Below, piece by piece: positions 10,886 to 62,261 of a DNA stretch of 64,000 nt. The first letter of the stretch is position 1; each line of letters begins with the position of its first letter. The notes under the pieces are model-generated. The model was not told the DNA's origin, did no database searches, and worked only from the letters and a program-made list of their open reading frames with translations. The position numbers were made by a program, and so were the translations under genes. The stretch covers positions 36,520 to 100,519 of IMG/VR virus record IMGVR_UViG_3300049844_000277, one strand, 5' to 3'. The DNA comes from a virus.

Positions 10886-10891
10886 GGGAAT

Positions 10892-11308
10892 CTATCTCGC
10901 CCCGTATGGGTCATTAGGAGGCGGAGGTTGTTGAGGTTGAGACGGTGTCATGGCCTGCTGTATGCCCATCATAGCTAGGGGAATAGACGCTTGAATCGCC
11001 ATATCCCGCCCAAAACTTTTTAAACCTGATTTCCAACCACCTGGCTCTTGGGCTGGCGTTGCGGGGACCTCAGGTGTCTTTGGTACAGTGTCCGCAGACG
11101 TCACTGCCGGATTGGCGGTACCACCAAAAATAGGCGGCTTGCCTGCTGGCTGCTGTACCGGCGCTGCTGGCGATGTCTTCGGCGTAACAGGTTTGCCCTT
11201 CTGACCCTTCGCGAAGCGCAGCATCTGAACGGGCGCAGGCGCAGCCGTTTTCGTAAACGTCATCCACGCATCAGTAGTTCCCACAGAATAAAAGATATCG
11301 GCAATCAT
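10892..11308 (-). CDS. Pro-rich small hypothetical protein.
   Basis: ORF between the RNAP gene pieces. PQQPPPPNDP and PAAPVQQPAGKPP tracts. Confidence 0.4.
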   Translation of the reverse strand: MIADIFYSVGTTDAWMTFTKTAAPAPVQMLRFAKGQKGKPVTPKTSPAAPVQQPAGKPPIFGGTANPAVTSADTVPKTPEVPATPAQEPGGWKSGLKSFGRDMAIQASIPLAMMGIQQAMTPSQPQQPPPPNDPYGAR

Positions 11309-37100: not shown

Positions 37101-37527
37101 TAGTGTATCGGGAGCGCCGAAGTATCAAATAGGGAGAGCTGAACGTCAGACAGTTAATTTTAAAATCCAAAGCACAAGCTCTGATATCGTAATGGGACGA
37201 TTACTAGCAATCGAAGAACCTCTCAAAGATTTGGGAGGTAGACTTCTATTGACAGTGCACGACAGCCTTGGGTTTCAAATCAAGAAAAAATATATCCGAC
37301 AGCTACCTGATTTCATTTATACGTATTTGGAGAAGGGTGCAGCAGACGCCCATCCATGGCTCCCAGTCGCATTTAAATGGGACTACGAAGTTGGGTCATC
37401 ATACGGCGAACTCAAATCACTGGAATCCTACCTTGCCAACACGAAAATAGAGGAATACTCGAACGATGCCTACGTCGCCGAGGCTTTCACAGAAGAAGAC
37501 GCAAGAACCTCCCTCTCCGAACCCTGA
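34144..37527 (+). CDS. polA: Family A DNA polymerase (Pol I-like) with a 3'-5' exonuclease domain, interrupted by a mini-intein.
   Basis: - Exo I: ISVDTETN.
- Exo III: YAAVDADMTRRL.
- Pre-motif A GRLS//SNDENMQNIP matches GRLSSSDPNLQNIP.
- Motif A: FVNADAKGAEVRIL.
- Motif B: RTAVKRVVFGILYGAG.
- Motif C: LLTVHDS. Confidence 0.9.
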   Translation: MPTTRGALMEKPAEICSGCPREIETETHPYGYVESWIDSNAELIIIAEAPVCDRHGNVPSSFDDDSGKIIRTAVSELRNLPSHSKLAVSYTYAVLCTSNQGDKDPEKAVLQRCRTLLQADLRRANKNAVLLVMGMSALRALEIKAAKLKDMQGRLLQKQKIGEGDDAPIFDVVVTVSTKQLFAMPGIYTTFVADLRRAADAASAGGLTHVTPLEKLTEKYVIPKTIEEVRQICREILNYQEGKVSADNWPISVDTETNTKFPHRENLKVLAVSFAWAEGKATAIPLEHPTTPYAYQDAIPYVREVLASKKPKFLHNAKFDLKVFMKAGWPINGFAWDSMLGEHALEEDKKGQYGLKQLTRTFFPEFATYADSLQEMLTHEEGDSQLDNLRKAPKASTSKDGGFESIPLPTLLLYAAVDADMTRRLVLLQEKRITDEQNRVIVETNITKREQALAISARKKIRLRIAPLHSETEMLKKYMVLYPVPELCSADKPVRQLVLNNVFPVTPALARMEFKGIRIDRPYLTTLREALGKVVTETAAELQDMAGREITLNSPAEIAEILFNSGFIHPTTHAPTTYPLTGIGKTKTGQIQTTEKVMQYLVAKYQCPFAAKKLIYAKAYKAKNTFCQNVWDLSELDGYLHTNYNQHGTNSGRLSCVAGETVLDTNYGKIEIQNLDLEKMPGITIQTHELREQPILRKIEKGIEEMFEVELEDGRTITVTKKHRFLTPTGWKRLEELSENAEILCAASVGSGPNMRLVTTRIKSIRPVGPKKVWDLTVAVDHSYIAHGFVNKNSNDENMQNIPKKLAGVNIKKVFLPDDDSYVFVNADAKGAEVRILTAYCRDQALIQSLNAGQDTHCFIASKIVEIVRQSPGATAVLGSMNLSDEYPLTYEDFAARDKLKETNSKYGAMLDKFRTAVKRVVFGILYGAGPQKIAETIGISLEQAQQLIHTLFALFPSIKTYMAQTKWELQQFNLVETFFGRRRRFSVSGAPKYQIGRAERQTVNFKIQSTSSDIVMGRLLAIEEPLKDLGGRLLLTVHDSLGFQIKKKYIRQLPDFIYTYLEKGAADAHPWLPVAFKWDYEVGSSYGELKSLESYLANTKIEEYSNDAYVAEAFTEEDARTSLSEP
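36109..36522 (+). mobile_element. Intein 5: mini-intein (138 aa, no endonuclease domain) in the DNA polymerase.
   Basis: - Starts CVAGETVLDTNYGKIEI.
- Ends VWDLTVAVDHSYIAHGFVNKN with +1 Ser.
- Boundaries codon-verified (tgt at 36109 = Cys; aat at 36520-36522 = Asn). Confidence 0.8.
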
Positions 37528-37792
37528 TGTGGTAGTGCACACGCCTCTAGCGCTACACACCAAGAACCTCAAAGAAGCTGTAGGTACCCTCGTCATCTTT
37601 TACCTCGTAAACAACGGAAGACCTCTTCGAGGAATTTTGTTGGAATATGACGATGAGACAGTAGTTATCGCTCCTAAAACTACAATTCCCCGCGAAAAGA
37701 TAGTAGCCTTCTATCAGGCCAAAAATGCTCCTCCCAAAAACAAAGAAGTTCCAAGATCTTCTGTTCGTCGATACAGAAACGACGGGACTTGA
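37466..37792 (+). CDS. Small hypothetical ORF overlapping the Pol end and the exonuclease start. A GTG start near 37529 is possible.
   Basis: ORF only, with overlaps on both sides. Confidence 0.3.
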   Translation: MPTSPRLSQKKTQEPPSPNPDVVVHTPLALHTKNLKEAVGTLVIFYLVNNGRPLRGILLEYDDETVVIAPKTTIPREKIVAFYQAKNAPPKNKEVPRSSVRRYRNDGT

Positions 37793-38297
37793 CCCTACTA
37801 AGCATGAGATACTCGAGGTCGCGGCGATACGTACAACGCCTGATGCGAAGCAGGTGCTGACGACGTATCACGCGAAAATAAAGCCACTACGTATCGAAAC
37901 CGCGGAACCAAAGGCTCTTGAGATAAACAAGTATTCCGCGGAGGAGTGGACCTTTGACAAGTGCGTCAATCCTGAGGTTGTGGTAAGAGCCCTAATGGCT
38001 ATGTCGCACAATACGGTGCTAGTAGGGCACAACGTATCGTTCGATGAGGGATTTCTTACGGCTTTATTGCGTCAATTCTACGCGACAGTTCCGTGGGGAT
38101 ACCATAAGATCGATACAGTCGCACTCGCGTGGCCCCTATTCATGTACACTCCCGCTGAAGGAGTGAGCTTAGAAAAGGTTTGTAGATATCTCGGTACTAC
38201 AAACAAACCTGAGCATCGAGCAATGAACGATGCCCTCGCGTGCAGGGATGTGTATTTAAGTCTGATGTCTCGTTGGGAAAAAGCTTGTGAAGCGTAA
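37725..38297 (+). CDS. DnaQ-like DEDDh 3'-5' exonuclease.
   Basis: - Exo I: LLFVDTETTGLDP.
- Exo II: LVGHNVSFDEGFL.
- Exo III: HRAMNDALACRDVY. Confidence 0.8.
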   Translation: MLLPKTKKFQDLLFVDTETTGLDPTKHEILEVAAIRTTPDAKQVLTTYHAKIKPLRIETAEPKALEINKYSAEEWTFDKCVNPEVVVRALMAMSHNTVLVGHNVSFDEGFLTALLRQFYATVPWGYHKIDTVALAWPLFMYTPAEGVSLEKVCRYLGTTNKPEHRAMNDALACRDVYLSLMSRWEKACEA

Positions 38298-38333
38298 CCT
38301 GTAGATACGTAAAATCTTTGTTCCAGTACATCT

Positions 38334-38355
38334 GGAGTCAGCGTAGCGCTGACAT
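38334..38355. repeat. Palindrome-containing repeat, copy 1 (ggagtcagcgtagcgctgacat; hairpin gtcagcg-tag-cgctgac).
   Basis: Seen directly. A second near-identical copy lies 174 bp downstream. Flanking similarity extends the repeat to about 30 bp. Confidence 0.6.
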
Positions 38356-38507
38356 GCTTCCCAGAGCTCTTAGTTTGGTAGCCTAGCTAACAAATATAAG
38401 GTCAATGGCCGCCGGGGAAAAATGAACTCCCTGAACCCCACCGAGCTCGAGCAAACAATAAATATATAGTAGAACATAGAAAGATCTTTCCTGCCCGGTA
38501 CCATTTC

Positions 38508-38529
38508 GGAGTCAGCGTAGTGCTGACAT
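38508..38529. repeat. Palindrome-containing repeat, copy 2 (ggagtcagcgtagtgctgacat).
   Basis: One mismatch relative to copy 1. Both copies lie in the 496-bp convergent intergenic region between the exonuclease gene and terminase. Confidence 0.6.
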
Positions 38530-38772
38530 ATGGCCCGATGTTAGCGCGAAGCCTAGCTTCAAGCTAAGAGAAGGTCATTATGGGCCGCCTCCGCCTCAAG
38601 GGCAATATCCTTAAGTATGTGGCGCCTATATTGGACATTCCGCGGAATCATAGAACTAAGAGGAAAGACGTAGGGAGCGTAGGGATTCGAGCTGTAAACA
38701 CAGCGCCCGCGTAGTGCGGGCAGCCGTAAGCTGTTCAGATAAGCTATGAGATAAGCTTGAAATCAACCATAT

Positions 38773-38787
38773 CCTCACTGAATGAGG
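38773..38787 (-). terminator. Possible weak terminator hairpin (cctca-ctgaa-tgagg) 7 nt downstream of the terminase stop.
   Basis: 5-bp stem, then a U-containing tract on the minus-strand transcript (UUGAUUUC). Weak evidence. Confidence 0.3.
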
Positions 38788-38793
38788 AATCCC

Positions 38794-40398
38794 TTACGCG
38801 TAGAATTTCAGGTCATTAGACACAAGCTTATGTGCAAACCATCCGAACAGTTGTGCATGAAGACAATCGTCAGGTAATTGGGGACTGTGTCGCCAAACCT
38901 TTTTACCTGACGACGTAACTTCTTCATAGACGTTCAGAATATCTTTAATCGCTTCACGTGATTCTTCTCGTGGCGGATATACAACCGAACCCCGCTTCAG
39001 AAACATGAGATAGTTATCAATCATCGTCGTGCGGTCAGCGAGATACCTGTCCAAGCCATTGTGCTTTATCGGCTGACCTAACGCTCCGTACTGCATCATG
39101 TGCACGCGGTGAGCGCCTAGACGGTCTCGTAGCGTCGCATTAGGTAGTGCGCCTTCGCCAGCGTCACCGATGACCATCGCAACAGCGTAATGCTGGCAAA
39201 TCGCAGCGATATTCTCGACATCTGCGACGGCGTTGCTTCCTGGGTAAATTCGGAAGTAGAGCGTACGTAACTTCTGTGTTGCGGGATGAAAGCCCCACAC
39301 CCATAGGACCGTACGGCTAACGCCCGTCGTTCCGCCGCCCGACCAATCAACGCCGGCAACAGTAATCGAACAGCCTTCCAAATTTTTACCTGGCGTAGGG
39401 GATATCTGGGGGCCTGTGCACAGTGCTTCGAGCTCCTCCAGTGAAATAAGTCTACGACCTACGGCATCTGATACACCCAAGACCTCATTGCGGAACTTAG
39501 CCGCGGAAAACATGTCATGGTCACGGAGGATATCATCCCAACGCGCCTGAGCGTCCTCGACTGCACTCGGCTTTTCGGGCGTATTTTTTACACACGACGG
39601 GATGTTCAGCGGCATAATCAATTGAGAAATGTGAAAGCCTTTAATGGAGTGTTTTCCAGTACCCTTGTCGGCAATACGCATATCGATCCACTGCCCTGCG
39701 CGGGGATTTAAAACCTTCCCACAATTAAGACAAATGGGGCCGTGTTTACCGAGAGACTTCTCACTAATAACGAAGTTGTATTTACTACACCCCTCGCACT
39801 TCATCACCCATTCGCTCTGAGAAGACTGATCCCACAAAAATTGAATGGAGTTCTCCATAGTTTTCGGAGTTCCGGCGTAAGTTTCGAACCGGTACGCGGA
39901 ATTCTTCATACACGCCAAAATTACGGGAATGACACTGTCGTATAATACGTCCTGTACTTCGTCAAACAAACAACGGTCAGCGGAAAAACCACGCGCACGA
40001 TCCGCGTCATCGGTCGCGTACGTGAACCCGTTCTCTGACCCGTTCGTATACGACCGATGTAATACGCGATCCGCGTGATCTGGAGATAAGAAGTATTTCT
40101 TAATCAACGGCGAATACGACAATGTTTTACCAACACGCGTGTTAGAGAACAAGAGAGTTTGCTCGCGTGAAGGACTGGAATAGTAACTCTTGAAAAATGG
40201 GCGAGAAACAGATTCAGATATAATAAAGTTAGCCAGAGATGTGCTTTTACTGACCTGACGCGCAGTCATCAGAAGCGTCGATTTATAACCTCCGTCATAT
40301 ATCGATTTGAAAAATGGATAGTCTGTAAGACTAAAGGGAGCGCCGTCTAGCCATAATAGACGCTCAGCCACTTCCGAAAGACGTTTACTTCCAATCAC
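38794..40398 (-). CDS. terL: Terminase large subunit (ATPase + nuclease).
   Basis: - Walker A-like: TARQVSKSTSL.
- Walker B: RCLFDEVQDV.
- C-terminal RNase-H-like nuclease region: VAGVDWSGGGT.
- Overall 534-aa architecture typical of TerL. Confidence 0.8.
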   Translation of the reverse strand: MIGSKRLSEVAERLLWLDGAPFSLTDYPFFKSIYDGGYKSTLLMTARQVSKSTSLANFIISESVSRPFFKSYYSSPSREQTLLFSNTRVGKTLSYSPLIKKYFLSPDHADRVLHRSYTNGSENGFTYATDDADRARGFSADRCLFDEVQDVLYDSVIPVILACMKNSAYRFETYAGTPKTMENSIQFLWDQSSQSEWVMKCEGCSKYNFVISEKSLGKHGPICLNCGKVLNPRAGQWIDMRIADKGTGKHSIKGFHISQLIMPLNIPSCVKNTPEKPSAVEDAQARWDDILRDHDMFSAAKFRNEVLGVSDAVGRRLISLEELEALCTGPQISPTPGKNLEGCSITVAGVDWSGGGTTGVSRTVLWVWGFHPATQKLRTLYFRIYPGSNAVADVENIAAICQHYAVAMVIGDAGEGALPNATLRDRLGAHRVHMMQYGALGQPIKHNGLDRYLADRTTMIDNYLMFLKRGSVVYPPREESREAIKDILNVYEEVTSSGKKVWRHSPQLPDDCLHAQLFGWFAHKLVSNDLKFYA

Positions 40399-44251: not shown

Positions 44252-45946
44252 ATGTTGGGAAGTGAGCCAGCATACTTCTTAAAGGATATCCAAAAAATGT
44301 CAAACCAGCCTGAACAAGAAAATGCACTCCAGAAATCGATGGTTTTCTGGGTGTCCCGCCGAGGAGCCTCTAACTACTGGGCCTCGGTCGTGAATGGAAT
44401 GAATAAGAGGTTCTCTAACGACGAAGGAACAATGTCGGTGCAGCTCACAGAGAACTGGAAATATATCCTCACCTGCCATCTTCCAGCGTTCGAATCGTGG
44501 TCGCCGAGAATGCGACTACTTGCTCTCGTTCACGAATGCGCTCACGTAGTTCTTCAGCACATTCCCCGGCTGTTCAAGATGTTGGCCAATTGTACAGACC
44601 CGTTCGTACGCACAGCCATCACATCGACGTTCAACTTCGCAGCAGACTTCGCGGCGAATGACGCAATCGTTCGACTTGAAGACGGATTCACAGAAGCGCA
44701 CAAAGCCTTCATGCACGTCAGTCCAGACGGAAAGCCGATTCCTCTCTCCAAAGAAGAAGAGGAGAAACTTCCCGGTGAATGGCCATTTCTTTTGCCAGAA
44801 GAATTTGGACTACCTCGTGGAAAGACAATGGAAGAGTACTTCGTGCTCATCCTCAAGGACCTCCCGAAGTTCAAACAACACGTCGAGGAGATGATGAAAA
44901 ACCTCGAACGTATTCTGAGTGAAATGGGGGAAGACTCCGAAGGAGAAGGAGAGGGAGAATCAGAGGATGGAAGTGGCGGCCAGGGAAAATCTCCCTCCCG
45001 TCGAAACATTCCACCTAAAGGGATTCCCGGCATTCCCGACGAAATCGTCAAGCACGCTCTCAACTCACCAGAGACCTTCGAGATGTTGCAGAAGGCCTTT
45101 GATAAGATTTCCAGTAAAGCACACAAGCAGTGGAACGAAAAAGCAAAGGAGATGACACCTGAGGAAGCAATCTCTGCGGGCAATAAGCTCAAGAAGCACG
45201 CGCAGACGATGGTCAGGGCCGCGAATGACCGCGTAAAGAGAGACCGCGGATTCATGCCCGGCGGAGTCCAGAAGATAATTGACGCGCTGATGGAGCCGGA
45301 CCAGATTCCCTGGGATTCAATTCTTCGAGACATCATTCACGGAGCAATAAGCGCTCGCGTTCAAGAGGAGATGGTCTCTCCGAATCTGTCTCTCATCAAC
45401 GAAGACTACTTGGAGCCGTGGCCTGGGCAAACATTGGAATTTGGCTTCAACATCACCTGGATGACCGATACCTCTGGTTCGATGGGTGATAGTGAATACG
45501 CGCGGGCGTGTAACTGCATGAACTCGCTGCTTGCGCAGAACAAGTTCGTATCCGTCACATACTGCGAGTGTGACGCCATCATGCAAAAGGAGGTGAAAGT
45601 CACAAACATCGAACCGCTCACAGAGGAATACTTGAGCGAGCTCCGTACACGCCGAGGATATGGAGGAACTGTCTATACGCCGTTCTTCAAGCGCGTAATG
45701 GGTGCGGATGAACCTCGGGATTGGATTGATGGCGCACCACGACTAGAGGATGCGCATCCCAAACCGGACTTAATGGTAATCTGCACGGATGGTGGCGTTC
45801 GTCTCATGGGAGAATGCTTCCCGAAGTATCGGCCAGAATGTCCCATCATCTGGTTGTTGATGCCAGGCTGCCATGCTACGACCGGAATGGATGATGTCGC
45901 GCCGGACCGGTTGATTCAGATGTATAAAATGCGGGAGGAGGAGTAG
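44252..45946 (+). CDS. Putative metallopeptidase-like (HExxH) + von Willebrand factor A domain protein. Likely partner of the MoxR ATPase.
   Basis: LALVHECAHVVLQH (HExxH). Acidic linker EDSEGEGEGESEDGSGG. MIDAS-like FNITWMTDTSGSMGD (DxSxS). This architecture commonly pairs with MoxR AAA+ proteins. Confidence 0.65.
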   Translation: MLGSEPAYFLKDIQKMSNQPEQENALQKSMVFWVSRRGASNYWASVVNGMNKRFSNDEGTMSVQLTENWKYILTCHLPAFESWSPRMRLLALVHECAHVVLQHIPRLFKMLANCTDPFVRTAITSTFNFAADFAANDAIVRLEDGFTEAHKAFMHVSPDGKPIPLSKEEEEKLPGEWPFLLPEEFGLPRGKTMEEYFVLILKDLPKFKQHVEEMMKNLERILSEMGEDSEGEGEGESEDGSGGQGKSPSRRNIPPKGIPGIPDEIVKHALNSPETFEMLQKAFDKISSKAHKQWNEKAKEMTPEEAISAGNKLKKHAQTMVRAANDRVKRDRGFMPGGVQKIIDALMEPDQIPWDSILRDIIHGAISARVQEEMVSPNLSLINEDYLEPWPGQTLEFGFNITWMTDTSGSMGDSEYARACNCMNSLLAQNKFVSVTYCECDAIMQKEVKVTNIEPLTEEYLSELRTRRGYGGTVYTPFFKRVMGADEPRDWIDGAPRLEDAHPKPDLMVICTDGGVRLMGECFPKYRPECPIIWLLMPGCHATTGMDDVAPDRLIQMYKMREEE

Positions 45947-45958
45947 AATAGGCGCACT

Positions 45959-46264
45959 ATGCCAACCGTCACTCCTCCAATAACTGATGACTCGGATTGC
46001 AGGGGCTACAAAGTACGATTCAACGAATCTTGGGAAGGGTCTATCTACAAAGCGAACCGTCATTGCTGGATGGCTACGCTAACCAAGAAACAGAAGAATC
46101 GCGCGCTTGTCATTCGTCCCGGAAAAAATTTTCCAAATCCTACGGAAGCGAAGAAATGGTGTGAAGAACAATTTGAACTAGAAGAAAAATCAGCGGTCCC
46201 ATACGAACAAAAACTTCGAGACGTACTCGTCGCAATCCGTAAACAAATAGAAGAAACCCTATAA
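45959..46264 (+). CDS. Hypothetical protein (101 aa).
   Basis: ORF. Confidence 0.5.
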   Translation: MPTVTPPITDDSDCRGYKVRFNESWEGSIYKANRHCWMATLTKKQKNRALVIRPGKNFPNPTEAKKWCEEQFELEEKSAVPYEQKLRDVLVAIRKQIEETL

Positions 46265-46265
46265 C

Positions 46266-46652
46266 ATGTCGCTATACAACTCGCTTTTCGGCCAAGAAAC
46301 TCTGGCCCCAGTTCTCCTAAACGCGCTGAACCTGTCTCGAGAAACCGTCGGAAGATATCGAGACTGTTATCTGGCGAAGGGGGAAGACTTAGGAATGCGC
46401 ATCATCGTATTCACGCGAAACGGTGGCGGTAATCGTGAAGACTACGAAGAAGTAACTCGCTATCTTCAAGCACATCCCCTGTACGTTCGCGACTGGGATG
46501 AAGAGTACGATTGTACTTACGCGTCGTACGAGTTTCGCGTACCAGAGTCGCTAGCCAAGGCCTTGGAAAAATTTGATGAGGAAGAACTCATGCCGCAGTA
46601 CGCACCGATGGAAAAATTCAAAGCGGTAATTGAGAAGCTCAACAGTCAGTAA
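46266..46652 (+). CDS. Hypothetical protein (128 aa).
   Basis: ORF. Confidence 0.5.
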   Translation: MSLYNSLFGQETLAPVLLNALNLSRETVGRYRDCYLAKGEDLGMRIIVFTRNGGGNREDYEEVTRYLQAHPLYVRDWDEEYDCTYASYEFRVPESLAKALEKFDEEELMPQYAPMEKFKAVIEKLNSQ

Positions 46653-46683
46653 CAGTCCTCCTCCCCCTCCCCTTCCCCCTCTA

Positions 46684-46721
46684 GGGCTTCTACGTACGCG
46701 TAGGAGCCCTTTCTTTTTCTT
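46684..46721 (+). terminator. Rho-independent terminator: 11-bp stem (gggcttctacg/cgtaggagccc, one G-U), 4-nt loop, then tttctttttctt.
   Basis: Seen directly, 32 nt after the stop of 46266..46652. It is preceded by a 26-nt polypyrimidine run (cctcctccccctccccttccccctc). Confidence 0.7.
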
Positions 46722-46728
46722 AGGTACC

Positions 46729-47331
46729 ATGGACCTCTACTGTCTTCGTGTTCGTAGGAACATCGCTGGACGTAAATTTCCCTTCGATAGAGTGTATCTC
46801 GCGAAATACGGGGATCACGTTATATTCAAAAGATTATTCAGGTATGCCTTCATCCTTCCCGTTGAAGGCGTACTAAAGGAAACGCTGTACTGTCTCCCCA
46901 TTGAAGACAGCATGACGCACGCATTCGACAGAGTAGAAACGCCTGAGAAAATTCCAGATGTAGAGTGGAAGACGCTCATCGACTCGACGGACTGGGTACT
47001 CGCGGTACCGATTCTATCGAAGTACGTGACCGCTAACATGCCGAGATATATTATTGCCAAGTCCACGGTGCCCCGAAGAGACAAGAAAAACTCTAACGCG
47101 TGCGCAAACCCGTTTCCAAACATGACGTACTTGCAGACACCCGAGCAAAACATTCGGCCAATATGTGTCGCATGTCCGAACTTTATCCAGCATCAGAACG
47201 GTCACTGCGAACTTGGAGATAAGCTCTGCTACGACTCTCTTTCCCTGGGAATCCGAAATCACTTTGAAGAAGGCATGATGGTTCCTCCTGCCCCGGAAAA
47301 AGAACAAGTGACTGAGGAGGGGAACGACTAA
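46729..47331 (+). CDS. Hypothetical protein (200 aa), first gene of the RT operon. The track ORF starts at 46630, but the upstream part crosses the terminator and is non-coding.
   Basis: First ATG after the terminator, in frame. The stop overlaps the RT start (TAATG). Cys-rich C-terminus: CVACPNFIQHQNGHCELGDKLC. Confidence 0.5.
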   Translation: MDLYCLRVRRNIAGRKFPFDRVYLAKYGDHVIFKRLFRYAFILPVEGVLKETLYCLPIEDSMTHAFDRVETPEKIPDVEWKTLIDSTDWVLAVPILSKYVTANMPRYIIAKSTVPRRDKKNSNACANPFPNMTYLQTPEQNIRPICVACPNFIQHQNGHCELGDKLCYDSLSLGIRNHFEEGMMVPPAPEKEQVTEEGND

Positions 47332-48467
47332 TGCCTGTCTACAAACAAAATTTCCTTGAGCGAATTGAAGTACGCGAGCCACTCATCAAAGGCGTACCCC
47401 TTATCGTCGATGACTGGAGTCTGGCATTCCAGCTAGGTTTTACGGGTAAGACCGCGTGGTACATCATCCATGAACGCGCCAGTATGTACCGGGAGTTCAT
47501 GCTGAAAAAGAAGTCTGGGGGTCTCCGTAGAACGTTTGATCCAACTAACCTCCTGCGCATTTTCCAGAAACAACTACGCGCACGCATTCTGTTCCCGCTC
47601 GTATCTCGCCTAGGTCCGCACGTAGCCGCGTATCAGGTCGGTAAGAGCACGCTTGATGCGGCAAACTGGCACCTGCGCGAGTGTAAAATCTGCGACGACA
47701 CGACCCGTCCCGGCACGAGTCCTGTGAAACATGAGTGTCCTCGACGGGGTGTGAAGTTCAAAATGGATTTGAAGGATTTCTTTCTATCGACTCGTCGGTC
47801 CTGGATACGACAGTATTTCCACGAAGTCGTCGGATACAATCACTACGTCTCGTCGATTCTGGGGCACCTACTGACGACGAGTTATAAAGATGAGCGGAGA
47901 AAAGACAGGAACGGCGTTCCGCCAGGCGCATTAACAGCTGGCGATATTTGTAATCTCATCTGTGATTGGAAGATAGATCAACCGCTTATGGCGGCACTAC
48001 CCACAGGCTGGAAGTACACACGGTACGCCGATGACTTGTATTTCTCGTACGACGCACCCCTTCCATCAAAAGAAGTAAACAAGATAATCCGACTAGCCTC
48101 GGACACCATCACCGGCTCCGGTTACCGGGTAAATTGGAAAAAGCTCCAAGTGCAACACTGGAGCCGGCCCCAGCGAGTACTAGGTATCAATATCAACAGA
48201 AAACTAAACATCCCTGCGACTGAGTACCGTCGAATGCACATGATTCTGTATAAAGCAAAGAAGCATGGATTCCAGGCGCAACTTACGTGGGCAAAGAAAG
48301 CCGATGTTCCGGAACTTCACGCCTGGATAACCGGCAAACTGAATTACTACGCGCGATTCGCACCAGATAAAACCAATAAACTACAACGGCTTTATCAAGA
48401 AGCGAAGGACGCGAATCCAAGCGAAGAGGCCGCGGTGTTCAACTTTGGAACCGGTGCAAACCCATGA
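47331..48467 (+). CDS. Reverse transcriptase (retron/DGR/group-II-like clade) with a Cys/His-rich insertion.
   Basis: - Motif 1: KKKSGGLRRTFDP.
- Motif 2a: AAYQVGKSTLDAA.
- Motif A: VKFKMDLKDFFLS.
- Motif B: VPPGALTAGDICNLI.
- Motif C: YTRYADDLYFSY.
- Motif 6: VLGINI.
- Thumb: GKLNYYARF.
- Insertion: CKICDDTTRPGTSPVKHECP. Confidence 0.85.
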   Translation: MPVYKQNFLERIEVREPLIKGVPLIVDDWSLAFQLGFTGKTAWYIIHERASMYREFMLKKKSGGLRRTFDPTNLLRIFQKQLRARILFPLVSRLGPHVAAYQVGKSTLDAANWHLRECKICDDTTRPGTSPVKHECPRRGVKFKMDLKDFFLSTRRSWIRQYFHEVVGYNHYVSSILGHLLTTSYKDERRKDRNGVPPGALTAGDICNLICDWKIDQPLMAALPTGWKYTRYADDLYFSYDAPLPSKEVNKIIRLASDTITGSGYRVNWKKLQVQHWSRPQRVLGININRKLNIPATEYRRMHMILYKAKKHGFQAQLTWAKKADVPELHAWITGKLNYYARFAPDKTNKLQRLYQEAKDANPSEEAAVFNFGTGANP

Positions 48468-49840
48468 ACATGTACACGGTTTGCCACGCGTACGATGCAC
48501 GTAACGCAAGGTCAGATGCACTTGCGCTTTTGTTCAATACTCCCGACACTAAAAAAATAGCAGGAATCCCTGAGCTCTCCGAAATATATCCCAACGGATA
48601 TTTCGTCACTAGTATCTCCGACATAAAATCAGGAGACCCCTACAGACACTCATACTACCAAAGACAAAGATACTCCCACAATCCTGCTCCTTACACGATG
48701 GTATCCATTTTCGCTACGTACCCCCGTCCAGATGAGGCAAAACTAAACAGCGAAGATATTTGCTTCTTCGTAAATGGAAAAACATATCAGGTTAATCTAC
48801 GTACCCGCTACAACCACTGCCTGTCGTTGTTCAAAGCGGTAGGTTGTGCGCAATGCCCTGATAACGGGCTCCCCTGCGTATCCCAGGAAGCCGAAGAGCT
48901 AATCGAGCTTGATAAGAAACTCACCGACGCCGAAAGGCCTGTGTATTTCAACGAGACAGCGTTCTCGAACAATACCGAGTTCTTGAACGATATCGACGAC
49001 ATAGAGTTCTTAAAGTACCTACAAAGAAAGCACCCGTCCCTCGGTGACTTCAAACTTGTCAAACCCGGATCAACAAGTCCACGTTCGTTCCATAGTACTT
49101 TCCGCCCGTACTGGGACCACGACTTTTCGCTAGTTCCACGTAATGAAAAAGAAAAGTCAGACGCGGCATCTCGAGCAGCACGGACACGTAAGTTCAAGAA
49201 GGAAGAATGTCCTCAGTGCGTCATCAAAGATAGCTGCTCGAATGCATCCCGGTGTGATGGTAGATATCCGCCACAGGAGACGATTATCAAGCAGGCGAAT
49301 GCGGAGCTTACTGCGGCGATAGCCGGGTCGATACTTCCCGAGTGGGCGATATGGGAAGTTGCTCGAGGCGCGGGACAAACAGCAAAACATTCCAGGTGGC
49401 ACATCATGCTCACCGGAATACTATTAGACCGATATGGAAATGGGTCTCTCCGCGCTACAGTTCACCGCGCAAAAACAGACATCGATGAGTACAAAAGACT
49501 CAATACGTACGAAGAAATCGCTGAAGTATTTAACTTAGCGAAAACGGAAAAAGATGTGCCGCCCGAGCGTGGACCACTGAGGAGCTTTGAGCTCCGCGCA
49601 GTTTGGTGGTTGGCGCTTCTTGCTCGCTCAACCGCTCGAAGGGCTACAGGTTGGGGAGGTTCCCGGTACGTCGTAAGTATCGGTGTAGATGAGAAGACCG
49701 GTATCTCGCTCGAATGGACAAACGGGCGAGATATATCCCACTGGCACAGCAACAATCTACGTAAGATTGAAGATGTATCGAGGTGCCTCACGCCGAATAG
49801 TTTGTACGGCGTAGCTAAGGAACAATTCGTTCAGCGGTAG
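48464..49840 (+). CDS. Hypothetical protein (458 aa) translationally coupled downstream of the RT.
   Basis: Start overlaps the RT stop (ATGA). Cys clusters (CAQCPDNGLPC, CPQCVIKDSCSNASRC). No family recognised. Confidence 0.55.
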   Translation: MNMYTVCHAYDARNARSDALALLFNTPDTKKIAGIPELSEIYPNGYFVTSISDIKSGDPYRHSYYQRQRYSHNPAPYTMVSIFATYPRPDEAKLNSEDICFFVNGKTYQVNLRTRYNHCLSLFKAVGCAQCPDNGLPCVSQEAEELIELDKKLTDAERPVYFNETAFSNNTEFLNDIDDIEFLKYLQRKHPSLGDFKLVKPGSTSPRSFHSTFRPYWDHDFSLVPRNEKEKSDAASRAARTRKFKKEECPQCVIKDSCSNASRCDGRYPPQETIIKQANAELTAAIAGSILPEWAIWEVARGAGQTAKHSRWHIMLTGILLDRYGNGSLRATVHRAKTDIDEYKRLNTYEEIAEVFNLAKTEKDVPPERGPLRSFELRAVWWLALLARSTARRATGWGGSRYVVSIGVDEKTGISLEWTNGRDISHWHSNNLRKIEDVSRCLTPNSLYGVAKEQFVQR

Positions 49841-50918
49841 GACACACTTCCTGGTACGCAAGGAAGGCTTCTGTATCTGCGAGGAGGGCGGCCGACTGAG
49901 CTTCGTCGGCTGCTCTCTTCGCTGTCGCCGCTTCGGCGGCAGCCGTATCTGCGTCTTTCTTTTTTTGGCTCGTAATGGACACTTCACCGAGCTTATTAGT
50001 ACAGGTGAGCGCCATATCGCTTCTAAACGCTTCGAGGACTGACTGTCCGTTCGTAACTTCATCCACGACCGCTGCATCCATGGCAGTCTTAGCGGCGTCC
50101 CAGATGGCTTTCGCGCTGGTGTAGGCGCTCTTTGCGGCGTCGTAGGTAGCATTATCTGCGGTACCTGCTCGATAGGCGTCGGCCACACTAACGAACGTAG
50201 TAACTGCGTTGGTGTAGGTAACCGACGCTGAAATAAAGTTGTTGACGCTTGCCCGGTACGTGCTAATAGCCGTGTTCCCGGAGTTGAAGCGCCCCAGCAT
50301 CGCGCTACACTTCTGGCTCTCACTTAACGCCGTGACGTTGTCTTCGTTCGCCGCTGAAGCTGCGGCTGCGGTTACGGTAGCGTCCGTCGTTGCTTCGGCT
50401 GCCGTCACTTTGCTAGCCAGGTACTCGGCGTGCGCCGTAGTGTACTCGGACTCCCGTTCCGCAACGATGCCCGCGGTGAGGGGCATTGAAATCGTCGAGT
50501 AGTCTGGCGGCGAGGTAAGAGGCGCCAAAAACTGCTCGTTGTAGGTATGCCAATCGGCAATCAGATTGTCGACACGTTGTTGAATGAGAAGCTTGGCGCT
50601 CGAGGCCGTAGCAATGTCATCATAAACAACCGTGAAGTTCGTGCTGAGATAAAGGGTCTGATTTAAGCCGACCGCCGTTTCTCGGCCTAAGGACAGCGTC
50701 GTCAAATCAGCTACGTTAGCGACGCGAAGAAAAGTATCTGACTTTGGATCAACTGAGTTAACTATCTGATGGACAAAAATATTTGACGTGTACGGAGAAG
50801 GCCCGTATAGGGGGAGATCTCCTGCCTCGACCGAGTCGATGCTCGAATCAATCTTGAAGCGTTGAATACTAGCTTCGTCGAGAAATACAGTGCAACGTTG
50901 TCCAAGAGTGGTAGGCAT
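49815..50918 (-). CDS. Ala/Thr/Ser-rich hypothetical protein (367 aa), possibly structural or fibre-like.
   Basis: ORF. Composition (TVTAAAASAANEDNVTALSE...) suggests an extended or fibrous protein. Weak evidence. Confidence 0.45.
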   Translation of the reverse strand: MPTTLGQRCTVFLDEASIQRFKIDSSIDSVEAGDLPLYGPSPYTSNIFVHQIVNSVDPKSDTFLRVANVADLTTLSLGRETAVGLNQTLYLSTNFTVVYDDIATASSAKLLIQQRVDNLIADWHTYNEQFLAPLTSPPDYSTISMPLTAGIVAERESEYTTAHAEYLASKVTAAEATTDATVTAAAASAANEDNVTALSESQKCSAMLGRFNSGNTAISTYRASVNNFISASVTYTNAVTTFVSVADAYRAGTADNATYDAAKSAYTSAKAIWDAAKTAMDAAVVDEVTNGQSVLEAFRSDMALTCTNKLGEVSITSQKKKDADTAAAEAATAKRAADEAQSAALLADTEAFLAYQEVCPTAERIVP

Positions 50919-50945
50919 TTTTTGTTTTTCTTGTTTCCCTTGTTC

Positions 50946-51395
50946 TTACGGCACCGTAACGGCGGTAGTGCCAATCACGAACGAGGTCGCGATTATATCA
51001 TACTCTTGCGCCAAGCTCGTCAAGCGTGACTCGATGGTCGCCGCAAAGTCGATAGCCTGATTCGCCGCAGTATACAACTGGGTAACAGTGTTTTGTCGGT
51101 AAAAGGGAATGGCGGGCGTTGCTACGTCGGGATACGTCTGCACGTCAAGCACGGTGGCTATATGGTCATAGAGGCCGTCGCTGTACCGGTACACAAACAC
51201 AGCGTCATCGATATTAACCGTACTGGTGACCGTAGCCGCAACGCTGTATTGCGCCGGTGGACCAGTAATCGTCGACTGAACCAGATTGTACGTGATGCTA
51301 GTAGCGGCCATGGTGCTCCCAGTATAGGCCGCACATCTATCCATGTCTAAACAACTTCGAATCGGCCTTTGGGATGTGCAGAAGACCATCCCCAT
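50946..51395 (-). CDS. Hypothetical protein (149 aa), Thr/Val-rich, possibly structural.
   Basis: ORF co-oriented with the previous gene. Confidence 0.45.
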   Translation of the reverse strand: MGMVFCTSQRPIRSCLDMDRCAAYTGSTMAATSITYNLVQSTITGPPAQYSVAATVTSTVNIDDAVFVYRYSDGLYDHIATVLDVQTYPDVATPAIPFYRQNTVTQLYTAANQAIDFAATIESRLTSLAQEYDIIATSFVIGTTAVTVP

Positions 51396-51427
51396 TCTCT
51401 ATTTCTACCGTGTAAACCCCCGAACTG

Positions 51428-51937
51428 TTGATGACGACAAACTCAGATTATTGGCTGAGATGGGCAAGCGCCCAAGGAGCTACGATGCCGGCACACTCCC
51501 GAGGTCAAAGTCAAAGTCAAATCCAAAACCCAAATCTGGACGTGTTTCTAGAAGGTGACGTATATACGACGAATTGTCGATGCTCTGATTGTGGGAACAA
51601 TCACAGGAAAACAGAAAGAAAAGAATATTACTGGGCCACGGTCTCGAACTGCCACCGTGAATTAGCTCGAGCAGCAGAGGTTTACACGGCGGTCTGGGAG
51701 CCGAACACGGCGGGGTCTACCGTCGCAAAGCAGCTCATCGTTCCGCTGACCATCGGCCTCGCGGAGCTTGAAGTTCATCCTGAAAAATTTGAGAGCATCG
51801 CTCGTCGAAGCGTGTGTGCTCCGTACGGGGGATATCAATCCTTCGTGCATTTCATCCAAGGCTATCTGCAAGCGTGCATCGAGTACCCTGACGCCACCGT
51901 GCGGGTATCTACGCATAATTGGGGGCTACGTGATTGA
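51428..51937 (+). CDS. Hypothetical protein (169 aa) with a CxxC pair.
   Basis: ORF. CRCSDCGNNH. Confidence 0.45.
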   Translation: MMTTNSDYWLRWASAQGATMPAHSRGQSQSQIQNPNLDVFLEGDVYTTNCRCSDCGNNHRKTERKEYYWATVSNCHRELARAAEVYTAVWEPNTAGSTVAKQLIVPLTIGLAELEVHPEKFESIARRSVCAPYGGYQSFVHFIQGYLQACIEYPDATVRVSTHNWGLRD

Positions 51938-52250
51938 TCTAATCGAGCAGCTAACTCGGCAGAAGGAGTTCTCTCTTAGGACCTTTGGGCCCGGCGATTC
52001 ACGCGAGAGATTCGCTGGATTGCGGGAGCATATTGAGAAGGAACTGAGAGAGCTGGAGTCCGCCCCGTACGACTTGGAAGAGTGGATAGACATCATCTTG
52101 TTGGCGCTGGACGGCGCATGGAGGACCGGCGCAAGTCCAGCAGAGATAATCGCAATGCTCCAATACAAGCAACGAAAGAACGAAGAAAGAAAGTGGCCCC
52201 GCTGGCAAGACGTTTCGTTTGAGCGAGCGATGGAACACATCAAGGACTAA
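51930..52250 (+). CDS. Hypothetical protein. The track ORF 51768..52250 overlaps the previous gene by 170 nt; a GTG start at 51930 is proposed.
   Basis: A GTG overlaps the previous stop (GTGATTGA). The downstream part has ordinary protein-like composition. Confidence 0.35.
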   Translation: MIDLIEQLTRQKEFSLRTFGPGDSRERFAGLREHIEKELRELESAPYDLEEWIDIILLALDGAWRTGASPAEIIAMLQYKQRKNEERKWPRWQDVSFERAMEHIKD

Positions 52251-55960: not shown

Positions 55961-56040
55961 ATTCAGGGTATTCAGGTATTCAGTTATCCAATAAAATCAA
56001 GTACTTAGAACGAAAAATGGCTGAATACCCCCTGAATATC
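55961..56040. repeat. Iteron-like cluster: TATTCAG core three times direct (attcagggtattcaggtattcag), then twice inverted (ctgaataccccctgaatatc).
   Basis: Seen directly in the AT-rich half of the 1.16-kb non-coding region. Confidence 0.6.
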
Positions 56041-56084
56041 CCCCCCTATGGCACCAGAATTGCTTGTGCGGTCAAAATCGAACT

Positions 56085-56108
56085 TTCTGGGCTATTTTCT
56101 GGGCTATT
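56085..56108. repeat. Tandem 2 x 12 bp repeat (ttctgggctatt).
   Basis: Seen directly. Confidence 0.6.
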
Positions 56109-56436
56109 ATTTTGTTCAGTATTCCTTTTAACCAAATGCCCGAACTGGCGAACATTGATCACGTGCCATCCCGCGCGCCCAACATTGATCCCGTGCTGTC
56201 CGAGCCGACCCTCAGCGGGGTCAAGCTCCCGTGCTGTCCGCGCCAGCCTCCGGCCGGCCCCGCTTCCGCAAGGGAAACCTTCCCGACGTCCCGACGAAGA
56301 CTATACCCTAGCCTAGCCTTATCCTCCACCCCCGTCCCCACTCTCGCTGTAGCCGTAGATTTCCTGGCAAGTCTCGCCAAAGGCCTCCAGCGGGCCGTAG
56401 GACCGACGAACCGGCGTAACCCGGTCCGACCCCTTG

Positions 56437-56482
56437 CCCGACCCCCGAACGTCGCTCCTGCGCCCGCCTAGGCCCCTTCCCG
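56437..56482. repeat. 46-bp direct repeat, copy 1 (cccgacccccgaacgtcgctcctgcgcccgcctaggccccttcccg).
   Basis: Identical to copy 2 at 56562..56607, period 125 bp. Embedded in a GC-rich CCGAC-rich segment. Confidence 0.7.
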
Positions 56483-56561
56483 CCGGTCCGCCGAATCCGC
56501 CTCAAACCGCCCTGAGTGGCCTCCAGGCGCTCAAACGCCCCAGACCCGACCCAAGACCCTA

Positions 56562-56607
56562 CCCGACCCCCGAACGTCGCTCCTGCGCCCGCCTAGGCCC
56601 CTTCCCG
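56562..56607. repeat. 46-bp direct repeat, copy 2.
   Basis: Identical to copy 1. Confidence 0.7.
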
Positions 56608-56888
56608 GCCTAGACTCGAGGGGAACTCTCGCCGGGAGAAGACCCTTGAAGCCCCTACCCGCCCTGACGCTTCGCGACGTCCTCAAGAACGAAATTGAAA
56701 ACGATCGACGGAACGTCGAACAGATTTCCGTCTCTCGCCAGGATTCAGTTAACCGTTCAATCGCCATATGTGCGCGCCGGTACATCGAAGCGCTGGACTT
56801 TGGCGATGAAACGTTGTTGTTTGATGCCGAAGATAATTTGCGGCTTGCGCTTGATAACGTTCGTTCTTGATTATTCGCTTACTTCAAA

Positions 56889-57446
56889 ATGTTATTTCTC
56901 GGAGTCGATCAATCACTACGCAGCTCCGGAGTGGCTGTCATTTCCGAGGAACAAGAATCTGTCTATCTTGGGCGTATAGCCCCTGCTAAGCTTTCAGATG
57001 CACCAAGGTTGGCTGCAATAAGAGACGCATTACAGACACTCATTACTACAACACCAGACATCCGCTTTGCCGCGCTAGAAGGGTACGCGTATGACGTTGG
57101 CGCTGGTAGAGTGTTTGAGCTGGGTGAAGTTGGCGCTGTTGTTAAGTTGGCGCTTTATGACGCTAAAATCCCGTTTATCGTCGTTCCGCCGGCCTCTCTA
57201 AAGCAATTCGTAGCTGACCACGGCAACGCCAATAAGACGCAAATGCGGATATCTGTATTACGTCGTTGGGGTTATGACATTACCCAGGACGACGAATGTG
57301 ATGCCTTTGGTTTGGCGCAAGTCGCTAGAGCTGTACACCTTAACAAGGGCACGACTCGCTCCGAACTCGAAGTACTGAAGAAGCTACGTACAACAGACAA
57401 GAAGGTTTCTTTAGTCAGCTTCAAGACCCGATTCCCTTCCATCTAA
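56889..57446 (+). CDS. ruvC: RuvC-like Holliday-junction resolvase (RNase H fold).
   Basis: MLFLGVDQSLRSSG (Asp1). ALEGYAY (Glu). DDECDAFGLAQVA (Asp/His region). Size about 185 aa. Confidence 0.7.
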   Translation: MLFLGVDQSLRSSGVAVISEEQESVYLGRIAPAKLSDAPRLAAIRDALQTLITTTPDIRFAALEGYAYDVGAGRVFELGEVGAVVKLALYDAKIPFIVVPPASLKQFVADHGNANKTQMRISVLRRWGYDITQDDECDAFGLAQVARAVHLNKGTTRSELEVLKKLRTTDKKVSLVSFKTRFPSI

Positions 57447-62122: not shown

Positions 62123-62183
62123 TAGTCTCGACTTCACTAAACCGTCTGCTTCACCAGCGCGGTAGACCTTGGGGTTTAGTGAA

Positions 62184-62256
62184 CTCCCCGAGTAGGACTC
62201 GAACCTACGACCTAGCGATTAACAGTCGCTCGCTCCACCAGCTGAGCTATCGGGGA
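62184..62256 (-). tRNA. tRNA-Asn (anticodon GUU), 73 nt, no encoded CCA.
   Basis: Manual fold:
- Acceptor: TCCCCGA/TCGGGGA.
- D arm: GCTC-AGCTGGTG-GAGC.
- Anticodon arm: AGCGA-CTGTTAA-TCGCT.
- Variable loop: AGGTC.
- T arm: GTAGG-TTCGAGT-CCTAC.
- Discriminator: G. Confidence 0.8.
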
Positions 62257-62261
62257 AGATG

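What the first reader, a model, noticed from the sequence alone, without database searches (positions are those of the whole stretch)
46729..49840. Three-gene reverse-transcriptase operon of unclear type: small Cys-rich protein, RT with zinc-finger-like insertion, 458-aa Cys-rich protein
- A strong terminator immediately precedes the operon.
- All three genes are translationally coupled (TAATG, ATGA overlaps).
- The RT has all seven canonical motifs, including YADD and a GKLNYY thumb.
- It carries a CKICDD...HECP insertion between motifs 2a and A.
- No flanking non-coding RNA space for a retron msr/msd or a group II intron.
- No recognisable nitrilase, protease or other known RT-associated effector.
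- The neighbours have no family I can assign.
- This is a candidate undescribed RT-based system: a phage-borne defence, anti-defence or diversity-generating module.
Basis: partly seen in the sequence, partly recalled or inferred. Interest (0 to 1): 0.75.

Follow-up and report, generated by a model that had tools for sequence, protein, structure and literature searches.

The report
Phage-core retron-like reverse transcriptase module
A family of large uncultivated phages always carries a retron-type reverse transcriptase between two unknown metal-binding proteins. It has no template RNA gene next to it, but a row of retron-like RNA genes 8.5 kb away may supply the templates.

Summary
Three overlapping + strand genes lie behind a strong terminator: P1 (46729-47331), RT (47331-48467) and P3 (48464-49840).

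- **RT class.** The RT belongs to the retron clade. Its best profile is PADLOC RT_XIII, but at 157 bits, against about 530 bits for real type XIII RTs. Its nearest solved relatives are retron RTs. It is not a DGR, group II intron or DRT/Abi enzyme.
- **Differences from retron RTs.** It has no N-terminal extension. It carries an invariant C-C-H-C insertion. It reads VLG where retron RTs have the VTG signature.
- **Partners.** P1 and P3 match no family or fold, and each carries invariant Cys4 clusters.
- **Conservation.** P1-RT-P3 sits in the same genomic position in about 50 viral loci from contigs of up to about 200 kb, down to about 30% RT identity. No cellular genome carries it.
- **Template RNA.** None is adjacent, and the local terminator is not conserved.
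- **Candidate templates.** The gap at 38298-38793, between an exonuclease gene and the large terminase gene (TerL), holds three tandem structured units. Each has a covarying closing stem, an invariant G after its 5' strand, a 7-bp/3-nt-loop hairpin and ACNRAG before its 3' strand. Real type XIII ncRNAs have the same junction.

I propose that the RT acts in trans on these units. This is inferred, not shown.

The parts
46683..46720 (+). Intrinsic terminator (12-bp stem, T-run) ending the upstream genes. It is not conserved in relatives, so it is not part of the module.
46729..47331 (+). P1: a 200-aa protein of unknown family, found directly upstream of this RT clade in all but two loci. Its stop overlaps the RT start (TAATG).
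47164..47229 (+). P1 invariant Cys4 cluster (C146, C149, C160, C167; CxxC-x10-C-x6-C). Predicted metal site.
47331..48467 (+). Retron-clade reverse transcriptase, 378 aa.
   Evidence: Pfam RVT_1 2.4e-14. PADLOC RT_XIII 1.6e-46, followed by other retron RT models. PDB profile hits to retron Ec67/Ec86/Ec78 RTs at 1e-29 to 1e-17. NCBIfam retron models are the best hits but fall below their cut-offs.
47682..47738 (+). Clade-specific C-x2-C...H-x-C insertion (C118, C121, H134, C136), directly after the (N)AxxH-like DAANWH motif. It is absent from type XIII RTs.
48024..48035 (+). Catalytic YADD. It is conserved in the phage clade and lost in the cellular P0035-P0038 offshoot.
48464..49840 (+). P3: a 458-aa protein of unknown family, found directly downstream of this RT clade in nearly all complete loci. 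Its start overlaps the RT stop (ATGA).
48818..48877 (+). P3 Cys cluster 1 (C119, C128, C131, C138).
49208..49255 (+). P3 Cys cluster 2 (C249, C252, C258, C264; CxxC-x5-C-x5-C). It resembles the Zn motif of DDE_Tnp_1_6 only faintly (best E=0.0017, 4 of 36 members).
38314..38485 (+). Candidate retron-like ncRNA unit W1: a1 ATCTTT, G38320, hp1, hp2 GUCAGCG-UAG-CGCUGAC, hp3 with apex AGCCUAGCU, then ACAUAG-a2 AAAGAU. Its link to the RT is inferred.
38485..38668 (+). Candidate ncRNA unit W2: a1 TCTTTCCT, G38493, hp1, hp2, hp3, then ACUAAG-a2 AGGAAAGA.
38683..38792 (+). Candidate short ncRNA unit W3: a1 GGATTC, G38689, hairpin GCCCGCG-UAG-UGCGGGC, then AAUGAG-a2 GAAUCC.
   Evidence: (20 bits)

Best explanation
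**What it is.** The operon encodes a divergent retron-clade RT with intact catalytic residues. Two clade-specific Cys4 metal-binding proteins, P1 and P3, flank it. All three are inherited together as a core module of a family of large (up to about 200 kb) uncultivated tailed phages.

**How it most likely works.** It probably works like a retron. The RT binds a structured non-coding RNA whose 5' and 3' ends pair. It primes from the 2'-OH of the G at the base of that stem and copies the adjacent part of the RNA into a short single-stranded DNA. P1 and P3 would act as nucleic-acid- or RT-binding partners, either accessory or effector.

**How it differs from known retrons.** The template is not next to the RT. 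The best candidates are the three tandem units at 38314-38792, which relatives carry in 2-10 copies. They lie between an RNase T-like exonuclease gene and the large terminase gene (TerL), on the same strand as the RT.

**Shown.**
- The RT class.
- The conservation and co-inheritance of P1-RT-P3.
- The absence of an adjacent ncRNA.
- The existence, structure and covariation of the units, and their retron-like junction.

**Inferred.**
- That the RT uses these units.
- That cDNA is made.
- What the product does for the phage. Because the module is a core one, I favour a role in the phage's own infection cycle or in counter-defence over a classical abortive-infection defence.
For: **RT class**
- PADLOC's best hits are all retron RT models, led by RT_XIII at 1.6e-46.
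- The PDB profile search gives retron RTs at 1e-29 to 1e-13, against 1e-6 for group II intron RTs and 6e-4 for DRT2.
- NCBIfam's top three hits are retron or retron-type RT models.
- The closest cellular RTs (28-31% identity) lie in bona fide HEAT-ARM_XIII / SWIM_XIII / RT_XIII operons.

**Module**
- In 58 viral loci, every RT scoring at least 224 bits has P1 directly upstream (all but two).
- P3 is directly downstream in all loci that reach that far, except L002/L003, L041, L045 and L055.
- Viral RTs scoring below 155 bits have neither partner.
- The genes overlap or abut.
- The order polA - exonuclease - gap - TerL - ... - DUF2201 - P1-RT-P3 - ... - PrimPol - VapE recurs in unrelated samples.

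**No adjacent ncRNA**

**Candidate ncRNA units**
- The covariance model R2 finds 21 copies at E<1e-6 in 7 contigs. All lie in that gap and on the RT strand.
- 99.6% of cells pair, and 5 of 11 pairs show double changes. Slid controls pair at 35-47%.
- The closing stems covary: -10.5 kcal/mol within a unit against -7.1 across units.
- Each unit folds on its own into the same architecture in clades with RT identity of 33-75%.
- The composite signature occurs at 0.41 per kb in the gap against 0.026-0.03 per kb elsewhere.
- The region's folding z-score is -4.0.
- Real type XIII ncRNAs have the same junction: a1-(G/A)AGAC ... (C/U)GAAGU-a2.
- Retron ncRNAs are defined by paired ends, a branching G in the msr and msr stem-loops (PMC8632793).
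Against: - No retron with a distant or tandemly repeated ncRNA is known to me.
- The type XIII msr covariance model finds nothing in the phage loci.
- After hp2 the units carry two to four hairpins. Validated retrons have a single long msd hairpin.
- The strict composite signature was detected in only 11 of 47 non-redundant TerL loci.
- Every phage examined has both the RT and the gap, so there is no presence/absence contrast to tie them together.
- The array could serve something else, such as small RNAs or a replication or packaging signal.
- The RT lacks the VTG signature of retron RTs.
- Nothing is known about P1 or P3.
Confidence: 0.45

Rival explanations
1. The RT module works without a dedicated structured template. 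It could be protein-primed or template-independent, as in AbiK or DRT1-like enzymes, or it could copy a phage or host mRNA or tRNA. P1 or P3 would then be the primer or substrate partner. The array near TerL would be an unrelated small-RNA, origin or packaging element.
For: - No ncRNA lies next to the RT in any of about 50 loci.
- The VTG signature is replaced.
- A clade-specific Zn-type insertion and two Cys-rich partners could replace RNA contacts.
- The array is 8.5 kb away and no co-variation with the RT was tested.
Against: - The RT sits firmly in the retron clade. To my knowledge, all characterised members of that clade prime on an msr G.
- The array's junction matches that of type XIII retron ncRNAs.
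- The array is conserved at the same place across the whole family.
Confidence: 0.3
2. It is a phage-carried retron-type defence or exclusion system. It would act by superinfection exclusion or abortive infection against competing phages, with P1 and/or P3 as a toxin effector held in check by the RT and its product.
For: - All characterised retrons are RT + ncRNA + effector defence systems (PMC7736814; PMC8632793).
- The three genes are tightly coupled and co-inherited, like RT-effector sets.
- An inactivated offshoot of this RT sits in a cellular defence-island-like context.
Against: - The module is fixed in position across a deeply diverged phage family (RT identity down to about 30%) instead of patchy like defence cargo.
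- Neither partner resembles a known effector: no nuclease, protease, TIR, transmembrane or PRTase domain.
- PADLOC finds nothing for either partner.
Confidence: 0.2
3. It is a diversity-generating retroelement or a group II intron remnant.
For: Phages commonly carry DGRs. The window holds one 64-nt repeat pair, at 56419-56482 and 56544-56607.
Against: - That repeat is a 46-nt exact core in a C-rich non-coding stretch 6.6 kb downstream. Its mismatches are not confined to A positions, and neither copy lies in a target gene.
- No other repeat of 40 nt or more exists in the 64 kb.
- The RT profile matches retron RTs and not group II RTs: TIGR04416 scores 37 bits against a cut-off of 300.
- Rfam finds no intron domains.
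Confidence: 0.02

Closest known systems
Type XIII retrons (Mx162, Mx65, Ne144, Sa163 group; RT clade 10 of Mestre et al. 2020, PMC7736814)
   Same: - RT_XIII is the best-scoring RT profile.
- The nearest cellular RTs are type XIII RTs of Myxococcota, Planctomycetota and Verrucomicrobiota.
- Both are three-gene systems with one Zn-finger-bearing partner.
- The candidate phage ncRNA units share the junction a1-G ... GAAG(U)-a2 and a 7-9-bp msr hairpin with a 3-nt loop.
   Different: - The RT scores 157 bits against about 530 for real members, with RT_III-A close behind at 138.
- It lacks the roughly 200-aa N-terminal extension, carries a CCHC insertion and reads VLG for VTG.
- The partners are unrelated to SWIM_XIII and HEAT-ARM_XIII (hhalign probability below 1%; PADLOC none).
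- No type XIII msr is present and no ncRNA lies between partner and RT.
- It lives in phage genomes, not chromosomes.
Retrons in general (RT + contiguous msr-msd ncRNA + effector)
   Same: - The RT belongs to the retron clade.
- Accessory genes are co-inherited.
- The candidate ncRNA has paired ends, a G at the stem base and short 5' hairpins followed by longer ones, and is 110-190 nt long.
   Different: - The ncRNA is not contiguous with the RT. It lies 8.5 kb away and is repeated 2-10 times in tandem.
- The module is a core phage module instead of defence-island cargo.
- msDNA production is untested.
Defence-associated RTs (UG/Abi/DRT) and DGR RTs
   Same: These are stand-alone bacterial or phage RTs with partner genes. 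Some have no retron-style template.
   Different: Sequence places this RT with the retrons (E=1e-29), far from DRT2 (E=6e-4). There is no TR/VR pair.

Membership tests
Retron (general) | RT belongs to the retron/retron-like RT clade | tested here: met
   - PADLOC's 25 best hits are all retron RT models.
- The PDB profile search is led by retron Ec67, Ec86 and Ec78 RTs.
- NCBIfam's top three hits are retron or retron-type RT models, although below their curated cut-offs.
Retron (general) | 'VTG' signature in RT motif 7 (PMC8632793) | tested here: not met
   The window has QRVLGININ. In the clade, L284 and G285 are invariant, where type XIII RTs have VTG.
Retron (general) | ncRNA (msr-msd) gene contiguous with the RT gene | tested here: not met
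   - The genes overlap, and the regions upstream of P1 and downstream of P3 are coding in relatives.
- No synonymous-site constraint peak lies inside the cassette.
- Rfam finds nothing.
Retron (general) | ncRNA with complementary 5'/3' ends, a conserved priming G, msr stem-loops and an msd hairpin, anywhere in the genome | tested here: inconclusive
   Units at 38314-38792 have a covarying closing stem, an invariant G, conserved hairpins and longer variable hairpins. Use by the RT is untested. The variable region forms several hairpins instead of one.
Retron (general) | Production of branched msDNA | not testable with these tools
   This needs expression followed by nucleic-acid analysis.
Retron type XIII | RT matches the RT_XIII profile at member level and has the N-terminal extension | tested here: not met
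   The RT scores 157 bits and covers profile positions 109-428 of 469. Real members score 532-538 bits. The extension is absent.
Retron type XIII | Winged-helix + SWIM Zn-finger (DEDE) partner | tested here: not met
   PADLOC returns nothing for P1 or P3. hhalign of the P1 and P3 profiles against 30 SWIM_XIII proteins gives a probability of 0.2% or less.
Retron type XIII | HEAT/ARM-repeat partner | tested here: not met
   PADLOC returns nothing. hhalign probability is 0.4% or less. The models of P1 and P3 are mixed alpha/beta, not repeat solenoids.
Retron type XIII | Type XIII msr | tested here: not met
   Covariance model R1 recovers held-out cellular loci at 72-88 bits. It finds nothing better than E=3 in 500 kb of phage loci.
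Diversity-generating retroelement | TR/VR repeat pair with adenine-specific mismatches near the RT | tested here: not met
   - No such pair was found within +/-8 kb.
- The only repeat of 40 nt or more in the 64 kb has a 46-nt exact core in non-coding DNA, with mixed mismatches.
Group II intron | Intron RNA domains and a maturase-type RT | tested here: not met
   Rfam finds no intron hits. group_II_RT_mat scores 37 bits against a cut-off of 300.
UG/Abi/DRT defence RTs | RT matches UG/Abi/DRT families better than it matches retrons | tested here: not met
   No DRT or Abi model appears among PADLOC's 25 best hits. DRT2 structures score E=6.5e-4 against 1.6e-29 for retron RTs.

The most novel reading that the evidence does not exclude
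This would be a phage-core 'split retron'. A retron-derived RT, with two novel Zn/Fe-S-type partners, acts in trans on a tandem array of 2-10 different msr-msd-like RNA genes beside the terminase gene. It would produce a set of msDNAs that the phage needs for its own cycle or uses to disarm host immunity. This would be the first retron with a detached, multi-copy template locus, and the first retron serving a virus instead of a cell.
Probability: 0.35. Interest if true: 0.9.

Novelty: new variant of a known kind. Interest (0 to 1): 0.75.

Why it matters
- **Retrons are known as bacterial anti-phage systems** with an RT, an adjacent ncRNA and an effector. Here a retron-clade RT is a fixed core module of a deep family of large phages, with partners of unknown fold and no adjacent template.
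- **If the array is the template**, three accepted features of retrons change: the template can be encoded apart from the RT, several templates can serve one RT, and a virus can use the system. This phage lineage has no isolate in the public phage collection searched, so it would also gain a testable function.
- **It could be useful in the laboratory.** A compact 378-aa RT that naturally works in trans on several templates would interest people building retron-based editing tools.
- **If the array link fails**, the module still stands as a new retron-type RT system. Its two partner families would be new (229 representative P3 sequences at 50% identity clustering).

Tried and rejected
- **P1 and P3 family searches.** Pfam, PADLOC, PHROGs and NCBIfam found nothing. 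The only signal was a faint DDE_Tnp_1_6 Zn-motif resemblance in P3.
- **PDB sequence profiles for P1 and P3.** Nothing was found.
- **Comparison with type XIII partners.** Profile-profile comparison found no relation.
- **Public phage genomes.** A blastn search of 44500-52000 found no match.
- **The upstream terminator or polypyrimidine tract as a mini-template.** Rejected, because it is not conserved.
- **Gaps between P1 and RT in L006 and L002.** These hold small inserted ORFs, not RNA.
- **An RNA element embedded in the coding sequence.** No clear synonymous-constraint peak was found. The best window scored 0.76 against a mean of 0.52.
- **Type XIII msr model on phage DNA.** Negative.
- **Rfam.** It found only a tRNA, and it holds no type XIII retron RNA family.
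- **DGR.** Rejected.
- **Direct-repeat search in six distant TerL loci.** Repeats turned up in only two to three of them.
- **Literature.** No paper found in five searches describes this phage group or a phage-core retron.
Full report
**1.

Three + strand ORFs lie at 46729-47331 (P1, 200 aa), 47331-48467 (RT, 378 aa) and 48464-49840 (P3, 458 aa). The P1 stop overlaps the RT start (TAATG), and the RT stop overlaps the P3 start (ATGA). A 12-bp hairpin followed by a T-run at 46683-46720 precedes P1. A convergent gene (49815-50918, - strand) overlaps the 3' end of P3.

The RT has YTRYADDLY, QRVLGININ and GKLNYY. It also has an insertion, CKICDD...KHEC.

**2. What the RT is**

- Pfam sees only RVT_1.
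- PADLOC's 25 best hits are all retron RT models. RT_XIII leads (1.6e-46, 157 bits, profile positions 109-428 of 469), followed by RT_III-A (138 bits).
- A profile of 21 homologues hits solved retron RTs first: Ec67 at 1.6e-29, Ec86 at 8e-25, Ec78 at 6e-18. Group II intron RTs score 1e-6 and DRT2 scores 6.5e-4.
- NCBIfam's top three hits are retron or retron-type RT models, well below their curated cut-offs. The group II maturase model scores 37 bits against a cut-off of 300.

The closest RTs in 185,579 species genomes are 28-31% identical. They come from Myxococcota, Planctomycetota and Verrucomicrobiota. The two loci I checked are classical type XIII retrons: HEAT-ARM_XIII, SWIM_XIII, then an RT scoring 532-538 bits on RT_XIII.

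Aligned with those, the phage RT differs in three ways:
- It lacks their N-terminal extension of about 200 aa.
- It has the C-x2-C...H-x-C insertion right after the (N)AxxH-like motif.
- It reads VLG where they have VTG. VTG is the signature of retron RTs (PMC8632793).

C118, C121, H134 and C136 are invariant in the clade. The RT is therefore retron-clade and nearest to type XIII, but it is not a member of that type.

**3. The partners**

P1 and P3 have no hit in Pfam, PADLOC, PHROGs, NCBIfam or PDB sequences.
- **P1:** 55 homologues, with four invariant Cys.
- **P3:** 229 representative sequences at 50% identity clustering in 1.8 billion proteins, all 400-500 aa with the same architecture.
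- **P3 Cys clusters:** two Cys4 clusters, with six Cys invariant and two nearly invariant in 36 diverse members.
- **P3 cluster 2:** the only Pfam trace, a faint likeness to the Zn motif of DDE_Tnp_1_6 (4 of 36 members, best E=0.0017).

**4. A core module of a phage family**

The window is part of a 167,875-bp contig. It looks like a tailed phage:
- a GpA-type large terminase, a PolA with an intein, a PrimPol and a VapE-like helicase;
- a DUF2201 metallopeptidase/VWA protein;
- a tRNA-Asn.

It has no nucleotide match among 50,697 phage records.

RT homologues are numerous (767 at E of 1e-3 or better) and all come from metagenomes, many on contigs of 140-197 kb. In seven unrelated samples the gene order repeats: polA - RNase T-like exonuclease - non-coding gap - TerL - ... 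- DUF2201 - (small variable ORFs) - P1-RT-P3 - two reverse-strand genes - ... - PrimPol - VapE.

An HMM census of 58 viral loci gave a clean split:
- Every RT scoring at least 224 bits has P1 immediately upstream, with two exceptions.
- P3 is immediately downstream wherever the sequence reaches, except in L002/L003 (two small ORFs instead), L041, L045 and L055.
- Other retron-type RTs in viral contigs, scoring below 155 bits, have neither partner.

The genes overlap or abut nearly everywhere. The module is absent from cellular genomes. The only apparent exception is a MAG contig identical to an IMG/VR viral contig.

**5. No adjacent template**

- The terminator upstream of P1 is not conserved. 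In relatives, coding sequence runs up to the P1 start.
- The rare gaps inside the cassette hold small ORFs.
- I saw no clear synonymous-site constraint inside the three genes.
- A covariance model of the type XIII msr recovers cellular loci it was not trained on at 72-88 bits. It finds nothing in 500 kb of phage loci.
- There is no DGR-type repeat.

**6. A candidate template locus elsewhere**

The window's largest non-coding stretch (38298-38793) lies between the convergent exonuclease gene (37725-38297, +) and TerL (38794-40398, -). It holds three tandem units.

In close relatives the same gap holds three to four units of about 190 nt. A covariance model of the first two hairpins finds 21 copies at E<1e-6 in seven contigs. 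All lie in this gap and on the strand of the RT. On these copies:
- 99.6% of cells pair;
- 5 of 11 pairs show compensatory double changes;
- slid controls pair at 35-47%.

Every unit has the same layout:
1. A closing stem whose outer part differs between units and covaries: -10.5 kcal/mol within a unit against -7.1 between units of one genome.
2. An unpaired, invariant G directly after the 5' strand.
3. A short hairpin.
4. A 7-bp hairpin with a 3-nt loop.
5. One to four longer variable hairpins.
6. ACNRAG directly before the 3' strand.

The same layout, with unrelated sequences, appears in the gap of clades whose TerL is only 52-68% identical and whose RT is 33-50% identical: L182 (about 9 units), L183, L004, L228, L224, L240, L210 and L220. 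A composite signature occurs at 0.41 per kb in the gap, against 0.026-0.03 per kb in the rest of the TerL loci and in the RT loci. It was found in only 11 of 47 non-redundant loci. The whole region folds with z=-4.0.

Retron ncRNAs are characterised by paired 5' and 3' ends, a conserved branching G in the msr that primes DNA synthesis, short msr stem-loops and an msd hairpin (PMC8632793). In 21 real type XIII loci the 5' strand of the closing stem is followed by (G/A)AGAC, and the 3' strand is preceded by (C/U)GAAGU. The phage units show the same junction: a1-G ... AAC(G/A)AAG(U)-a2.

The hypothesis that these units are the RT's templates rests on three things: this junction match, the triloop hairpin and the RT's need for a template. 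It is an inference. I have no expression data, no contrast between phages with and without the RT, and no tested co-variation between the RT and the units.

**7. Function**

The module is fixed in position and co-diverges with the phage backbone. I therefore think a role in the phage's own cycle or in counter-defence is more likely than a classical abortive-infection cargo. I cannot discriminate between these.

**8. Verdict**

This is a new variant of the retron kind. It has a retron-clade RT with altered signature motifs, two new partner families, phage-core status and no contiguous ncRNA. It may also have a detached tandem template array.

Noticed in passing
window 38298-38793 (units 38314-38485, 38485-38668, 38683-38792); also L174:69-885, L175:2129-3044, L176, L177, L180, L184, L182:4076-5500(-), L183, L004:2355-3003, L228: A tandem array of structured ncRNA-like units lies between the exonuclease gene and TerL. 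Each unit has a closing stem, an invariant G, a 7-bp triloop hairpin and ACNRAG before the 3' strand. The array is conserved in position across the phage family and matches no Rfam family. I discuss it in the report as the candidate RT template.
   Followed up: yes
L257 (JGI 3300072388 Ga0620610_0000892) 10001-11104; proteins P0035-P0038: A subclade of this RT is about 58% identical to the window's and keeps the CCHC insertion. It has lost both catalytic motifs (MDLKDFF>LELKDFF; YTRYADDL>YTRHEGSL/HNDSL/HEDSL). In L257 (P0037) it stands alone, without P1 or P3, in 64% GC DNA. Its neighbours there are a type I R-M system, an AAA_15/21 ATPase, an SMODS cyclase, a serine recombinase and bpMoxR/VWA genes, which looks like a cellular defence island or mobile element. 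It may be a captured, inactivated decoy or sensor.
   Followed up: partly
window 56000-56890 (repeats 56419-56482 and 56544-56607): A C-rich stretch (GC 0.58, GC skew -0.20) that appears non-coding lies between the VapE-like gene and a downstream 185-aa gene that occupies the slot of RuvC in relatives. It holds a 46-nt exact direct repeat containing GCCTAGGC. It is not a DGR pair. A gap follows VapE in L172, but the helicase-like gene in L175 has none after it.
   Followed up: partly
window 34144-37527: The family A DNA polymerase gene carries an intein (Pfam Intein_splicing, residues 678-793).
   Followed up: no
window 46640-46682: A 26-nt polypyrimidine tract (CCTCCTCCCCCTCCCCTTCCCCCTCT) lies just upstream of the terminator hairpin. 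It is not seen in relatives.
   Followed up: partly
L004:2355-3003: In this distant relative the gap holds one complete unit (a1 ATGCCG-G ... ACTAAG-a2 CGGCAT). About five further long hairpins follow, each ending in ACNAAG-CGGCAT. One 5' strand could therefore pair with several alternative 3' strands.
   Followed up: partly
L002:9822-10004, L006:5744-5996, L173:9753-10001: Small ORFs of 60-84 aa, one with a CxxC...CxxC pattern, are inserted between P1 and RT in some relatives.
   Followed up: no
window 12377-20887 (-): A 2,836-aa ORF, presumably a structural or injected giant protein. A tRNA-Asn lies at 62183-62257 (-).
   Followed up: no
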